Virus record (IMG/VR): IMGVR_UViG_2529293080_000022
Reading direction: 5' to 3' (one strand)
Length of the DNA stretch: 5,254 nucleotides
Source: a virus
Lineage: Duplodnaviria > Heunggongvirae > Uroviricota > Caudoviricetes
Shown here: piece after piece, positions 1 through 5,254 of the stretch
How positions within the stretch are numbered: the first letter of the stretch is position 1
How the letters are laid out: each line of letters opens with the position of its first letter
Position numbers: made by a program

Positions 1-3000
1 GGACACCACTTTGTCTAATTCGTCAGATTCTGACCAGACGGTTCAGGCTGTACGCTTACGGTCGTAGCGATACCTGATATTAATGCCCTGTGGATTTTTA
101 TCCTTGCCTTCATATCCACTGACCCGACCATCTGTATATTCGCCCAATGAAGAAAAGTAGTTTCTGTTGACGAAATGACTGAAAGTCTCCCTGTTATGAG
201 CAGTCGCATCCTTTACAAAATCCTTCAGTCCCGGAAACTGAAAGTGCGCATACCCCAGAGAAATTGTATGGTTTCCTTCTGCTGCATGTGCAGATAAATT
301 TACACAGGCAATCCCGGAGATTGCACACACAACCAGTGTTGCTATACTCTTCATTTAAGATATCCTGTATTCAGATAACACGCTAAACTTTTTAATAATA
401 CATCTTTTTAGACATTTTAAATGAATATTAAAGACTCGCTTCAACTAATCATATACTGATGTATTAATAACCAAGACCTTATCTATATACGGCTTTCGAA
501 TATCCCATGTTGCACCGCCGGAATAATGCTCACAGGAATATATTTTATTTCCTGTAGCACCAGTGGATGTGGTATAAATCGGTCGATCATAAGGAGTTCT
601 TTTCCAGTTATAATACCCGACCAGTGCAGGCATGATTGCGCATGGATATCCAAGGTCCTTTTCAAATTTGATATCAACAGGTATTAACTTCGCGTCAAGC
701 AGCATCATTTCGCCATGATAAATCATCTCACCGTCCGGGTTATACATGGCGATACCATACTCAGAAGGTGGAGTAACCATATTCGCGAAAGCATAAACCG
801 TCGTAACACCAGGGTTCGTTCCCCTGACAATTACATGAAGCCTTAGTGCATGATATCCATCAATCTGTTCATGCGTGTACATGACATCGGCCTTCTTCTC
901 TGTTCTGATAAAGAAAAAACAACTTTTGCCTGACGGGATTGATGTTTTAAAAAAAGACTTTTCAGTCGCCGGTATGGTGCCTTTGTTGATCAGACACTGC
1001 GGCGTAAAACCTGGACTTATCCATACGCTGCCATCCGGCTTCATAATGCTCAAACCATACATGACACTTATCCCCAGAATGTATAAATATAAGATCCCAT
1101 ACCCTGCTCAAGATTCGACCACGTCACCGTATTGCCATTAATGGTTATCTTCGGTACTTTCCGATCCGCAAATACATTATTCCAGGGAAATAAACAACAT
1201 ACAGCCTGCAATGATTTCCCGTCGGGTTTATTCGTGTACGTCTTTGAGCCAGACTCCGCTGTAAATCTGTCCAGGAAAAATACCGGAGTCAGCACGCCCG
1301 TAACATTAACGTTATTTCTGTTATAAATGGCAAAACCGTATTCCAATACTCACCTCCTGATCAGCGTAATCTGCCTATGCGAACAGCCAGTCGTCCATTC
1401 TGATCATAAACCTCAATTTTATCATTGCGGATCACCAGTCCTACATTCTGATTAGAGTAACGAATTGTCAGTTGCCCTTGTGACGTAACACTGAAAAGGC
1501 CTCCAATATTCAGGTTACCCTGAGAATCAACCTGAAAGTTTCCGTTCTGAATAACGGCACTCCGGATAACTGGCGAAGTGATACTTACCCCGGCTTTTAC
1601 CTCATCCGCCACAACCTTCCGCGACACCAGTGTTTCAATCACCGCGTCATAAATCATCGCTTTCGGGATCACAACCTTGCCACCTGATACCGCAAACGGA
1701 TAGGCGGTGTTATCCGGGTTGTTCGGGTCAAAGACAAACAACTGCGACGCAGAAATTGCAACCTGACTTACAGGCCTGCCTTCACTGTCTTTTCCGGCGA
1801 CAATCCCGATCCCCGCAGTGATACCATCAACTCCCGCTTTTTTTGACCACATTGCCAGAAACGCCTCACCGCCTTCTTTATCCAGTTTAGTGATGCGCTT
1901 GTCGACCTCATTAAGCGATTCACTGGTTGACGAATCCAGTGTGCTAATGCGGGTTTCAATACCACCAATCGTTCTTGTCGTTTCTTCCCTGAGAGTCCCC
2001 ACAACTTCGGTTGTCTTAATTGCAGCATCCTTTACAGCCTGCCCCTGCGCGTTTTTTATTTCTTTACGCAGCTCGGACACAACCGGCGACTTTGCAGCCT
2101 CATCGCGGATCTGGTCAATGATGGCCTTCACGCCGATCTGTGTTTGTGCCTGAGTGCCTTTTTCAGCATTCCATGGACCTTTCACTCCTGCCGCGTTAAC
2201 AAAACGTATCCAGTAAAATCCCGACCAGCCAGGGTCAACCGGATCGCCGTAAACCTGCCCCGGCGTCGTGGCAACCAGCACTGCATCAGCAAGGTCATCC
2301 TCCGTACCCCGCCAGATTTCAGTCAGTGAATGTCCGCGATAATTAGGCATATCCCATTCAAGAAGAACCGAGCCAAATCCTCCTGTCGCCTTAAAATTCA
2401 GCGGTTTTGTGGGAAAATCAACAGTCATTAAAGTACTGTCAATCTCAATACCCGGATTCAGTGCATATGAGGCACCACCCGATGTTCGACGCCGGGCGAG
2501 TTTAAGACCAACCAGTTCCTCACGGGTCACAAATGCGTGGCGTCCGTCACCACGCTGCCCGGTGCCAATTTCCATGTTCTCCACAACTGTGGATAAATCC
2601 TTCCCCGCACGCCACGGTTTTCTGGTCATACCGGCATCTCCGACATCGATGTACTCAGGGTTATTCGTTCCACCTGCCCGAATCCGGATACCATCACCTG
2701 CCAGTTTTGCCCGGTTGCTGCCGGAAGTCTCACCACACTTCCCTTAAACGTACCCGGCGCAAAATGAATCACAGGAACATCATCAGCCATAACAGTGATC
2801 CCCACCCGCTCAGGTGCCGGAGATTTCACTCTGATACAGGAAAAAGAGGTTCTTTCAGGTAATGAAAAAATTTTTGAATGCCACCTTATCATGGACGGCA
2901 GAGAGTCCCCGGCAAGCACTGACATTTTGTCCCCTGTCACCACGCGCATCATATCTTTTGCAAGATCAATCCATGCACAGTCAAACGGCGTGCTGAGATA

Positions 3001-5254
3001 ACGGATATCCATGTTCGCCGGACTGAATACAAACACATCCTGCTTACCATCCGGTTTTGTGTAACAACCGATATAGTCACCACGCCAGGAATAAGCCACA
3101 ATGGACATCGGGTTAAACTGACTCTGCCACTGTTCTGGTGAAATAATCTTTTCCGTTGCCAGTGCTGTATTACCGTTTACATCAACAGATACCAGACCGT
3201 TTGTCCCGGCATACAGTACGAATCCCTCCATCGCCACCATGCTTCTTCGGCTCAGGCATGCCTGCATGGAAGGAATTCTGGAGCCAGAAATTGTGGAAGG
3301 CGATACACCACTGAACAGATAAGGCTCCCCCTTTGTCGCCACCACCAGTGACGTTCCCAGCGGACAGATAGCCACAATATCTTCTGCCGTCGTGTGACGA
3401 TTCACTTCCGGCCATGCATACGGCAGATACGCTTCCGAAAACATCACTTCATTACCGGCAAACCCGGCAGCAATACCATTAGCCATCAGGCAAAGACCCG
3501 TCATATTCTCCGGTGGCGGCAGGTAATCCCATGTTGCCAGGGAAGGCCCAAGGTTTTTCGTCGGTATTTTGTCCGTGTAACTGAGCACTGACGCATCCAG
3601 TTCAGCCACAAGTAAAAAATCCGCTTCTCCTCCACCTGATGCAGAGCGATAAATCCGGCGACGTTTAATATTGGCATTCTGCAATGGCACCGGAGCCAGC
3701 GTCAGTTGTACCGCAGTCCCCGGAGTACGGAGTGTTACCTCCAGAGACGCCGGACCAGGCGGACCTTCTTCACCATAATCTGAGACAAAGGTTTCAGTAT
3801 AAAACCGGGTTTCGTCATCATTCGGGTTATCGTCAGAAACATCACCGCCCTGCTGAACAGTACAGACAGGAGCTGTCGTCGGCGCGGGGATCCCCAGACG
3901 ATACGATGATGTCGGGTGATTCCCGTCCCCTTTTGTGGCAATAGTCGCATCCGTCACTTTAGGAAAACGCCCGTCAGTGTAGTAAATACGCCCGTGGGGG
4001 TCCTGAGCGATCGGACTGCGGATCACATCCACCACATCCGGCCATGCAAACCAGAAATCGTCACGGTAATGAAAAATTGTTTTTGGCTTAATTGTGAATG
4101 TTTTCTCAACCCCGGATATCTGACGTTCTGGTGTAATAACACCAAACCGGAAATGGCAGTCCTCCGCCAGTACAGCGGAATGCTCGGGCAGCATGGATGT
4201 CACAACGCGCGGCATCATCCCACGCATCGTGGTGATATCGATATAGGGCATAGAAATTCCTTTGACTGCTTCAGGCTTAAAAATCAGGGGATTTATGATG
4301 GAATTCGCTAAAATCGCGATCGGCATCACTGAAACAAAATGCCTTGCATGACATTCTGATGATGACTAAATAACTTCATTGATTATTGCAATTTTCTTTC
4401 GGTTTGGGGGAGCATATTGCTCCCCTTTTTTCACTGCATTATCATTGCCGCTGTAGCAACGAGAAGCATCACTCCGCACACGCAAGATGTTTCACACTCA
4501 CACCATACAGTCCATTTTTCGCCATTCCCGTATACAGAAAGCTATTCACTGTCTTCGTGTGAATTCCCATTTCACTGGCAAGGCGACATCATGTACCCCT
4601 TTCAATTTTTCCAGATTCAGCTGAATAAAACGGCGTCCCTGATACATACTGCGCATTAAATGGCCCAACTGACTATCACAGATTATTAACCAGGATTCTT
4701 TACTATCCAGAATAATCCTGCGATTTTCCGGCATAAAAAACTCTTGAACCAGAATTACACGGCATCCTTCACTCCATCGTATTAACATGTTTATTACTTC
4801 ACTCTCTAATAACCCCCCCTATACATGACAACAAAAACCGGAGCCGGGCTCCGGTTTTTGTGAAGCTGTCGGCTATTTCATCCCGCCAATATTTTCCCAC
4901 GTCCCGTCAGCACGCAGGATTTGCAGCGGTCTTACCACACACTGTATCTGCTTTTTATCTGCATCCAGTATCACCACCTGTGTGATTACCCTGTCCTGCT
5001 CCGGAATAATGCCATTCTCATCTGACTCCAGAATGTCTGCCGGTCCCAGTCGCAGTTGTGCTGTAAGCGACTGCCCGTTTTCACAGTCATCATGCTTTCC
5101 GCAACCGCACAGACTCTGCATAAGCTTTCTCAAAATATTCATGTCATTCTCCTGTTCTGCCTGTATCACTGCCCACTTCATCCAGCCCCTTGACATCCTG
5201 CCACGGCCCGTCACCAAACCTGACCTGCAAATGCTGAAAAAAACCCTGAACCCG

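What the first reader, a model, noticed from the sequence alone, without database searches (positions are those of the whole stretch)
1361..4329. J-like host-specificity protein encoded as two ATGA-coupled ORFs
Lambda-type J proteins are usually one polypeptide of about 1100 aa. Here the J-like C-terminal module (422 aa) is a separate ORF whose ATG overlaps the stop of a 567-aa ORF (ATGA at 2626-2629) and which has its own GGAG SD. The 422-aa frame is also open for 38 codons upstream of its ATG (to 2744), overlapping the end of the 567-aa frame, so a recent frameshift in an ancestral single gene cannot be excluded; an A4 run at 2704-2707 (minus strand) is a possible slip site. Either a natural split into hub and receptor-binding subunits or a pseudogenised J would be informative.
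Basis: partly seen in the sequence, partly recalled or inferred. Interest (0 to 1): 0.5.

Follow-up and report, generated by a model that had tools for sequence, protein, structure and literature searches.

The report
Stx phage tail nozzle and needle
These are two ordinary, separately working tail genes of a Shiga-toxin phage, the six-fold tail nozzle and the three-fold central needle that plugs it, and not a broken or split lambda J gene.

Summary
The window is the late region of a 933W/phi24B-type short-tailed Stx2a prophage of E. coli O157:H7, 100% identical to many such phages.

The interpretation does not hold. The upstream ORF is not the N-terminal hub of a J protein. It is the podovirus tail nozzle, homologous to the Ralstonia phage GP4 nozzle (PDB 8JOV_A, E=1.6e-52), with no J-hub Pfam domain. 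Its true start is probably ATG 4251, giving 541 aa.

The 422-aa ORF is 100% identical to phi24B gp56. A 2026 cryo-EM preprint shows gp56 as a trimeric central needle plugged into the hexameric gp57 nozzle. It shares only the central-fibre domain (PF09327) with J.

In Sp5, in-frame deletions of each gene abolish infectivity, and each is complemented in trans.

In 106 related loci (nozzle identity 97% to 36%) the two genes are always separate ORFs. The junction is ATGA or GTGA in 46 of 54 distinct junction sequences. No fusion was found. The open upstream stretch is neither conserved nor unusual (P about 0.09).

Verdict: already known, ordinary, low interest.

The parts
2626..4251 (-). Tail nozzle gene (541 aa plus stop). 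Equivalent to 933W L0124, phi24B vb_24B_39/gp57 and Sp5 ORF70/ECs1232. The mechanical ORF runs on to a GTG at 4329 (567 codons), but that extension is probably not translated.
   Evidence: PDB 8JOV_A (GP4 portal-tail complex, 6 chains) E=1.6e-52 over residues 30-503 of the 567-aa form. phrog_511 E=9e-279. Foldseek hits to podovirus tail entries. Homologues are 541-543 aa and start at MPxID. PGAP and RefSeq annotate 1626 nt. AAGGA lies 7 nt before ATG 4251.
1361..2629 (-). Central tail needle / axial fibre gene (422 aa plus stop). Equivalent to 933W L0125, phi24B vb_24B_40/gp56 and Sp5 ORF71/ECs1233.
   Evidence: 100% identical to the phi24B and VT2-Sakai products. Cryo-EM preprint: a trimer whose N-terminal domain sits in the nozzle lumen and which is absent after ejection. 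PF09327. PDB 9ZE4_N (DEV gp56) E=1.8e-12.
2626..2629 (-). ATGA: the needle start codon overlaps the nozzle stop codon.
   Evidence: Conserved as ATGA/GTGA in 98 of 106 loci and as TAATG in 5.
2638..2641 (-). GGAG Shine-Dalgarno for the needle gene, 8 nt upstream of its ATG, inside the nozzle coding sequence.
   Evidence: Read directly from the sequence. Function inferred.
2129..2629 (-). Needle residues 1-167: N-terminal nozzle-plug domain followed by an FN3-like domain. This is the part conserved in all relatives.
   Evidence: tblastn to distant loci covers about residues 1-163 to 1-192 even where the rest differs. The phi24B N-terminal domain was fitted into density within the nozzle. Weak match of residues 131-194 to J 779-855.
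1850..2131 (-). Needle residues 167-260: trimeric coiled-coil shaft.
   Evidence: The preprint gives Val167-Met260. Residues 167 and 260 of the window protein are V and M. The AF2 secondary structure has helices at 167-264; that model is of low confidence.
1364..1864 (-). Needle residues 256-422: J-type central-fibre / beta-prism domain (PF09327 at residues 256-333). It lacks J's C-terminal receptor-binding Ig domain.
   Evidence: The beta-prism description comes from the preprint.
1068..1346 (-). Small ORF. 92 aa from a TTG as called by PGAP/RefSeq; 75 aa as annotated in 933W L0126 and phi24B vb_24B_41 (gp55). Candidate needle-tip adaptor.
   Evidence: phrog_557. Annotations. The tip role is only proposed.
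445..1062 (-). 205-aa ORF. Equivalent to 933W L0127, phi24B gp54 and Sp5 ORF73. Candidate needle-tip receptor-binding protein.
   Evidence: phrog_425. Detected at low abundance in phi24B virions and proposed as the tip density. Homologues occur in E. coli K-12 phages such as JenP2 (61%) and JLBYU10, tonijn and tunus (44-46%). It is not among the nine essential Sp5 genes.

Best explanation
The locus holds two distinct late genes of a 933W/phi24B-type short-tailed Shiga-toxin phage. They are adjacent and probably translationally coupled.

The upstream gene (2626-4251, 541 aa) encodes the tail nozzle. Six copies form the distal ring of the tail below the adaptor rings.

The downstream gene (1361-2629, 422 aa) encodes the central needle, or axial fibre. 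Three copies form:
- an N-terminal knob that sits in and closes the nozzle lumen;
- an FN3-like domain;
- a flexible coiled coil (residues 167-260);
- a C-terminal beta-prism homologous to the central straight-fibre domain of lambda J.

On receptor engagement the needle leaves the nozzle, and the ejection protein and DNA follow. The two small genes downstream (92/75 aa and 205 aa) may form a receptor-binding tip on the needle.

The ATGA overlap with an internal GGAG is the usual compact junction of phage late operons. It lets ribosomes finishing the nozzle restart on the needle.

Basis of each step:
- Shown by others: the virion positions and stoichiometry (phi24B cryo-EM and proteomics), and that each gene is separately essential (Sp5 genetics).
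- Shown here: the homology and the conservation of gene order and junction.
- Inferred: translational coupling, the trigger role of the needle, and the tip role of the small proteins.
For: Identity of the window:
- 100% identical to many Stx2a phages and 98% to 933W.

Nozzle:
- 8JOV_A E=1.6e-52.
- Foldseek top hits are podovirus tail entries from GP4, Pa223, A4, VP1, SU10, Sf6, P22, PhiM1 and T7.
- No similarity to J.

Needle:
- 100% identical to phi24B vb_24B_40.
- Gene order and lengths map vb_24B_39/40/41/42 to gp57/56/55/54.
- V167 and M260 match the published coiled-coil limits.
- The preprint reports a hexameric gp57 nozzle with a trimeric gp56 needle in its lumen, lost on ejection, with both proteins in the virion proteome.

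Genetics:
- Sp5 ORF70 (ECs1232) and ORF71 (ECs1233) in-frame deletions each lose plaque formation and lysogenisation, still package DNA, and are each complemented in trans.
- The mapping was confirmed from the Sakai record and the paper's supplement.

Conservation:
- 106 loci with nozzle identity 97-36% all carry a separate needle ORF directly downstream.
- Junctions: 90 ATGA, 8 GTGA, 5 TAATG, 3 other. None is fused.
- Among the best 150 of 4452 nozzle-family representatives, none shows a needle-sized C-terminal extension in the stretches reported. The one with the largest apparent excess (P0246, compared directly) has no needle similarity.
Against: - The structural evidence is a 2026 preprint. 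The needle N-terminus was fitted at only about 10 A, and most of the needle model is an AlphaFold prediction.
- One residue range quoted there for gp57 (Arg47-Leu57) could not be matched to the sequence under any start-codon offset from 0 to 79.
- My own AF2 models were poor: needle pLDDT 34, which is unusable; nozzle pLDDT 56.
- Translational coupling is untested. The Sp5 ORF70 deletion, as read from the primers, removes the GGAG yet is rescued by ORF70 alone. The needle can therefore be made in sufficient amount without its native upstream context.
- The tip role of the small proteins conflicts with their absence from the Sp5 essential-gene list.
Confidence: 0.95

Rival explanations
1. A recent frameshift (for example at the A4 run) split an ancestral single J-type gene, leaving a pseudogenised or crippled host-specificity gene.
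For: The needle frame is open for 38 codons upstream of its ATG, and an A4 run lies in that stretch.
Against: - The nozzle protein aligns to its homologues up to its last residues (query end 538-541 of 541) in loci down to 36% identity. Its stop is therefore the ancestral one.
- The open stretch is not conserved (0-77 codons, typically 13) and not unusual (P about 0.09).
- The same two ORFs occur in 106 loci.
- Both genes are essential and complementable in Sp5.
- Both proteins are in phi24B virions.
Confidence: 0.01
2. A natural, ancient split of a lambda-type J protein into a hub subunit (567 aa) and a receptor-binding subunit (422 aa).
For: - The 422-aa protein carries J's central-fibre domain.
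- Functionally, a distal ring plus a central fibre resembles J's hub plus fibre.
Against: - The upstream protein has no sequence or Pfam similarity to J's hub domains (FNIII-A_GpJ, Phage-tail_3, Ig_J).
- It belongs to the podovirus nozzle family.
- The surrounding genes are those of a podovirus tail (adaptors, lateral fibre, giant ejection protein), not a siphovirus tip.
- The needle's N-terminal 75 residues have no counterpart in J.
Confidence: 0.03
3. A programmed -1 ribosomal frameshift near the end of the nozzle gene makes a minor nozzle-needle fusion protein in addition to the two separate products.
For: The needle frame is -1 relative to the nozzle frame and is open for 38 codons before the overlap.
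Against: - There is no X XXY YYZ slippery heptamer in the last 38 codons. The only two in the gene are at codons 211 and 306, far upstream of the open stretch.
- The open stretch is not conserved in relatives.
- The phi24B text read here does not mention a fusion product.
Confidence: 0.01

Closest known systems
phi24B gp57 (nozzle) and gp56 (central needle). Same genes as 933W L0124/L0125 and Sp5 ORF70/ORF71 (ECs1232/ECs1233).
   Same: - The needle is 100% identical and the nozzle about 96-97% identical.
- Same ATGA overlap and same neighbouring genes.
- The published assembly (hexamer plus trimer) and the published essentiality apply directly.
   Different: Nothing of substance. In the window, lom downstream is cut by an IS66-family element.
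Ralstonia phage GP4 nozzle (PDB 8JOV chain A, 'virion-associated phage protein')
   Same: - Clear sequence homology over about 470 residues (E=1.6e-52).
- Six chains in the entry.
- The preprint calls GP4 the closest structural relative of the phi24B tail.
   Different: - GP4 carries a quite different set of fibres, and its fibres have a different fold from those of phi24B.
- tblastn with the needle listed no Ralstonia phage among its leading host groups. I did not inspect the GP4 locus itself.
Pseudomonas phage DEV receptor-binding fibre: gp56 (PDB 9ZE4_N, 429 aa, gpJ-like trimer), gp55 and gp54
   Same: - A podovirus with a stand-alone J-like fibre of almost the same length (E=1.8e-12, two colinear stretches).
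- It is followed by two small genes with overlapping start and stop codons.
- The module couples binding of an essential outer-membrane protein (LptD) to tail unplugging.
   Different: - DEV is N4-like. Its fibre attaches beside a separate plug protein (gp74) rather than inside a nozzle.
- gp55 and gp54 are essential in DEV, whereas ORF72 and ORF73 are not in the Sp5 essential list.
- Homology of the small proteins to DEV gp55/gp54 was not tested.
Lambda J (tip attachment protein / central tail fibre, 1132 aa)
   Same: - The needle shares the Phage_Tail_Tip central-fibre domain (PF09327).
- It aligns weakly and colinearly with J 779-984.
- A natural 588-aa allele of the same needle gene (L030) extends the match to J 853-1048 (E=3e-22).
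   Different: - No hub domains, no Ig_J domains by Pfam and no C-terminal Ig_GpJ_C receptor-binding domain in the window allele.
- Podovirus rather than siphovirus context.
- The upstream gene is unrelated to J.
P22 gp10 nozzle with gp26 tail needle; Sf6 equivalents
   Same: - A hexameric nozzle closed by a trimeric coiled-coil needle that is expelled at infection (established knowledge of P22).
- P22 and Sf6 tail complexes are among the Foldseek hits of the nozzle model.
   Different: - No detectable sequence similarity of the needle to gp26 in the searches run here: only DEV gp56 was found in the PDB.
- The Stx-phage needle carries FN3 and J-type fibre domains.

Membership tests
Lambda J-type tip attachment protein / central tail fibre | N-terminal hub domains (Pfam FNIII-A_GpJ PF24801, Phage-tail_3 PF13550) | tested here: not met
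   Lambda J gives both domains (E=1e-41 and 6e-43). Neither window protein gives them, and the nozzle has no Pfam hit even at E<=0.1. BLASTP of nozzle against J: best E=0.14.
Lambda J-type tip attachment protein / central tail fibre | Ig-like/FN3 domains preceding the fibre (PF24421, PF24489) | tested here: inconclusive
   No Pfam hit. There is only a weak alignment of needle 131-194 to J 779-855 (E=0.048). PHROG profiles do align needle 71-389 to 'central tail fiber J' (phrog_31, E=2.6e-24).
Lambda J-type tip attachment protein / central tail fibre | Central straight-fibre domain (Phage_Tail_Tip, PF09327) | tested here: met
   PF09327 E=6.5e-11, 42.6 bits against a cut-off of 22, at residues 256-333. 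It covers only profile positions 15-94 of 139.
Lambda J-type tip attachment protein / central tail fibre | C-terminal receptor-binding Ig domain (Ig_GpJ_C, PF12421) | tested here: not met
   Absent from the 422-aa protein. It is present in 561-aa E. coli alleles. In the 588-aa L030 allele it is only a sub-threshold hit (15.3 bits, cut-off 26.2).
Lambda J-type tip attachment protein / central tail fibre | Encoded as one polypeptide in a siphovirus tail-tip gene cluster | tested here: not met
   The context is the 933W/phi24B podovirus late region: adaptors, lateral fibre L0121, giant L0134. Virion architecture is described.
Podovirus tail nozzle (GP4 nozzle, T7 gp12, P22 gp10 type) | Sequence homology to a nozzle protein of solved structure | tested here: met
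   8JOV_A E=1.6e-52 over about 470 residues. 4452 family members at E<=1e-3, typically 525-545 aa.
Podovirus tail nozzle (GP4 nozzle, T7 gp12, P22 gp10 type) | Nozzle fold (beta-propeller-based body) | tested here: inconclusive
   The AF2 model has only pLDDT 56. Even so, 9 of its first 11 Foldseek hits are podovirus tail entries, with 8jov_A at 1.5e-15; TM-scores are low at 0.2-0.3.
Podovirus tail nozzle (GP4 nozzle, T7 gp12, P22 gp10 type) | [quoted passage not shown] | not testable with these tools
   Reported for phi24B gp57, about 96.5% identical, by cryo-EM at 2.7-5.1 A.
Podovirus central tail needle (phi24B gp56 type) | Identity or homology to the characterised needle protein | tested here: met
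   100% identity over 422 aa to phi24B vb_24B_40. The gp56 mapping rests on gene order, gene lengths and V167/M260.
Podovirus central tail needle (phi24B gp56 type) | Gene directly downstream of the nozzle gene, as a separate cistron | tested here: met
   All 106 loci examined, down to 36% nozzle identity. Annotated Vibrio phages D171 and douglas 12A4 show the same order.
Podovirus central tail needle (phi24B gp56 type) | Trimer plugging the nozzle lumen, released on ejection | not testable with these tools
   Cryo-EM preprint, at about 10 A for this region.
gpJ-like receptor-binding fibre module (DEV gp56-gp55-gp54 type) | Stand-alone J-like trimeric fibre homologous to DEV gp56 | tested here: met
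   9ZE4_N E=1.8e-12, with two colinear stretches covering the FN3 region and the C-terminal fibre.
gpJ-like receptor-binding fibre module (DEV gp56-gp55-gp54 type) | Two small downstream proteins that bind the fibre tip and the receptor | not tested
   Two small ORFs are present and have been proposed as the tip proteins. Homology to DEV gp55/gp54 and receptor binding were not examined. They are not essential in the Sp5 screen.

The most novel reading that the evidence does not exclude
The 4-nt start/stop overlap between nozzle and needle is kept from 97% down to 36% protein identity, in 46 of 54 distinct junctions. That might reflect obligatory translational coupling, or co-translational docking of the needle knob into the nascent nozzle ring, which would help set the 6:3 stoichiometry. 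The alternative is that it is mere genome compaction.

A related open point is that the needle tip exists as alternative cassettes. One form has an integral lambda-J-type receptor domain. The other has a beta-prism plus two small tip proteins. Which part actually contacts BamA is unsettled, since the small proteins appear dispensable in Sp5.
Probability: 0.2. Interest if true: 0.3.

Novelty: already known. Interest (0 to 1): 0.07.

Why it matters
The finding matters mainly for annotation.

Public records call the 422-aa protein 'host specificity protein J' or 'tail fiber protein'. They call the nozzle 'hypothetical' or 'internal virion protein'. This invites exactly the misreading of a split J gene.

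Recognising the pair as nozzle plus needle avoids flagging a pseudogene in a medically important Stx2a phage.

It also points to the needle and its tip genes as the likely determinants of receptor (BamA) recognition and host range. Others have already proposed that role.

Tried and rejected
- Full-text search for '933W' plus 'L0125' found nothing.
- The AF2 monomer model of the needle was unusable (pLDDT 34), so no fold search was run on it.
- The nozzle model was mediocre (pLDDT 56). Its Foldseek result is used only as support for the sequence hit.
- I tried to match the preprint's 'gp57 Arg47-Leu57' to the sequence. No start-codon offset from 0 to 79 fits. The gp57 mapping therefore rests on gene order, gene lengths and the quoted similarity to the GP4 nozzle (29% identity, E=2.9e-53, close to my 1.6e-52).
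- I looked for a fused nozzle-needle protein among the 120 closest homologues of each protein, the 150 best of 4452 family representatives, and 106 genomic loci. None was found. The longer nozzle homologues appear to carry extra sequence in the N-terminal part. The one with the largest apparent C-terminal excess (P0246), compared directly, has no needle similarity.
- I checked for a -1 slippery heptamer in the open stretch and found none.
- The promoter/terminator scan showed nothing between the two genes.

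
Full report
**What the window is**

Megablast shows that positions 62-5254 are 100% identical to many Stx2a-converting phages and prophages of E. coli O157:H7. They are 98% identical to 933W, VT2-Sakai (Sp5) and related Sepvirinae.

In 933W the two ORFs of the finding are L0124 (1704 nt) and L0125 (1269 nt), annotated with the same 4-nt overlap. In phi24B they are vb_24B_39 and vb_24B_40. In the Sakai chromosome they are ECs_1232 (1626 nt) and ECs_1233 (1269 nt).

**Checking the observation**

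The following are all present:
- the two minus-strand ORFs;
- the ATGA at 2629-2626;
- a GGAG at 2641-2638, 8 nt before the ATG;
- the 38 stop-free codons upstream of the needle ATG, ending at TAA 2746-2744.

Two corrections are needed. The 567-aa length is a mechanical extension to a GTG that has no ribosome-binding site. All homologues begin at the internal ATG 4251 (MPYIDI...), which has an AAGGA 7 nt upstream, and PGAP annotates 541 aa.

The open upstream stretch is not more than chance. In that frame across the nozzle gene, 5 of 30 stop-free runs are at least 38 codons. Codon-shuffled versions reach 38 codons in 9% of trials.

**What the upstream gene is**

It has no Pfam hit, even at E<=0.1. 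It matches phrog_511 at E=9e-279.

Against all PDB sequences it matches one entry: 8JOV chain A, from the portal-tail complex of Ralstonia phage GP4. That chain is present in six copies. The match has E=1.6e-52 over about 470 residues.

An AF2 model built from 14 homologues was only moderately confident (pLDDT 56). Nine of its first eleven Foldseek hits in the PDB are nevertheless podovirus tail entries: GP4, Pa223, cyanophage A4, VP1, SU10, Sf6, P22 and PhiM1. T7 follows at ranks 27 and 47.

Against lambda J it shows nothing (best E=0.14, non-colinear). Lambda J itself gives six Pfam domains, including the hub domains FNIII-A_GpJ and Phage-tail_3. The upstream gene is therefore a tail nozzle, not the N-terminal half of a J protein.

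**What the downstream gene is**

The 422-aa product matches PF09327 (Phage_Tail_Tip, formerly DUF1983) at residues 256-333. It matches phrog_496 and, more weakly, phrog_31 'central tail fiber J'.

It aligns colinearly but weakly with lambda J 779-855 and 853-984. It lacks J's hub domains, its Ig_J domains by Pfam, and its C-terminal receptor-binding Ig domain.

Its only PDB sequence match is 9ZE4 chain N (E=1.8e-12). This is gp56 of Pseudomonas phage DEV, a stand-alone gpJ-like trimeric fibre of 429 aa. Together with two small downstream proteins it forms a receptor-binding fibre that recognises LptD and controls tail unplugging.

**Direct experimental evidence from the literature**

The window's needle protein is 100% identical to the phi24B product. 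A 2026 bioRxiv cryo-EM and proteomics study of phi24B describes:
- a hexameric nozzle, gp57;
- a trimeric central fibre or needle, gp56, whose N-terminal domain is anchored in the nozzle lumen;
- a coiled coil spanning Val167-Met260;
- a C-terminal beta-prism;
- loss of the needle density after DNA ejection.

Gene order and lengths map gp57/56/55/54 onto vb_24B_39/40/41/42: gp61 645 aa, gp55 75 aa, gp54 204 aa. Residues 167 and 260 of the window protein are V and M.

In Sp5, in-frame markerless deletions of ORF70 (ECs1232) and ORF71 (ECs1233) each abolish plaque formation and lysogenisation. Packaged DNA remains normal. Each deletion is complemented in trans by its own gene. Both genes are therefore functional and separately required, which excludes a pseudogene.

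**Is the two-gene layout conserved?**

I collected 23 loci from bacterial genomes and 80 from viral contigs with a nozzle profile. I added annotated phages and the window itself.

In all 106 loci that contain both genes, with nozzle identity from 97% down to 36%, a needle homologue follows the nozzle as a separate ORF. The hosts include Escherichia, Salmonella, Citrobacter, Yersinia, Pectobacterium, Brenneria, Serratia, Edwardsiella, Aeromonas, Vibrio and Photobacterium.

Junctions by locus:

| Junction | Loci (of 106) | Distinct 120-nt junction sequences (of 54) |
|---|---|---|
| ATGA, 4-nt overlap | 90 | 38 |
| GTGA, 4-nt overlap | 8 | 8 |
| TAATG, 1-nt overlap | 5 | 5 |
| Other (abutting TAA-ATG, a short gap, or an apparent indel) | 3 | 3 |

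The nozzle alignment reaches the last residues of the query in every case, so the stop codon is ancestral. The number of open codons upstream of the needle start varies from 0 to 77 and is usually 13.

No fusion was seen in three further sets. These were the 120 closest relatives of each protein, the loci above, and the best 150 of 4452 nozzle-family representatives. The longer nozzle homologues appear to carry extra sequence in the N-terminal part. The one with the largest apparent C-terminal excess, compared directly, has no needle similarity.

There is no -1 slippery heptamer in the open stretch.

**How it most likely works**

The needle's conserved part is its first 160-190 residues, the plug plus FN3 region. 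Downstream of that, length (368 to over 1500 aa) and sequence vary widely. This is the usual pattern for a fibre whose distal, receptor-facing part is exchanged by recombination while its anchor co-evolves with the nozzle.

Separate polypeptides are in any case required by the 6:3 symmetry mismatch.

The ATGA overlap with an internal GGAG probably gives translational coupling, but this is inferred. The Sp5 ORF70 deletion, as read from its primers, removes the GGAG yet is rescued by ORF70 alone. Coupling is therefore not strictly needed.

**Comparison and verdict**

This is the already described nozzle and needle pair of 933W/phi24B-type Stx phages. It works like the P22 gp10/gp26 pair. Its fibre module resembles the DEV gp56-gp55-gp54 fibre. 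It shares with lambda J only the central-fibre domain.

The reading as a split or frameshifted J gene is not. Novelty: already known. Interest: low.

Noticed in passing
window 1-61 and 62-354: Positions 1-59 are the terminal inverted repeat of an IS66-family element (ISEc8), with GTAAGCG... on the minus strand. It is inserted in the phage lom gene, which is thereby truncated. In strain CEC13002 the same IS end lies 269 bp further out in lom, so the window's source has either a different insertion point or an IS-adjacent deletion.
   Followed up: partly
L030 5623-7389 (IMGVR_UViG_2671180458_000016): A natural allele of the same needle gene, with the same nozzle and the same ATGA. It is 588 aa and is nearly identical to the window protein up to about residue 366. 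It then continues with a lambda-J-type C-terminus (match to J 853-1048, E=3e-22). The 92-aa and 205-aa small genes are absent downstream, and a YadA/Eib-like 398-aa ORF follows. An integral receptor domain and a 'beta-prism plus two small tip proteins' arrangement look like alternative cassettes.
   Followed up: partly
window 445-1062 and 1068-1346: The two small genes are proposed in two recent papers as the BamA-binding tip of the needle. They had individual deletion primers in the Sp5 screen (ORF72, ORF73) but are not among its nine essential genes. This is in tension with an essential receptor-binding role, at least on K-12. The 205-aa protein has 44-61% identical homologues in E. coli K-12 phages such as JenP2, JLBYU10, tonijn and tunus.
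   Followed up: partly
window 4252-4329: The 26-codon N-terminal extension of the nozzle ORF (GTG 4329) is annotated in the 933W, phi24B and Sp5 papers as part of a 567-aa protein. It is absent from homologues and from PGAP/RefSeq models, so the older records probably over-extend the gene.
   Followed up: yes
window 4406-4426 (+ strand): A strong 9-bp GC-rich hairpin followed by a T-run, reading as a terminator on the plus strand (antisense to the late genes). It lies in the intergenic region upstream of the nozzle gene.
   Followed up: no
L067, needle start: One viral contig has A6 instead of A7 just after the needle ATGAC. This shifts the frame at codon 3. It is either a homopolymer sequencing error or a real inactivating indel.
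   Followed up: no
L028 (Citrobacter amalonaticus S646): The needle homologue is cut to 93 aa, and the nozzle match is spread over a longer stretch than usual (4001-5968). This suggests a decayed prophage copy.
   Followed up: no
window 4873-5217 (- strand): A 114-aa ORF with the 'prophage tail fibre C-terminus' domain (PF06820, E=9e-36). It belongs to the lateral fibre region (933W L0121/L0122). Public records annotate this region inconsistently, either as an overlapping ORF or as a separate 89-aa gene.
   Followed up: no
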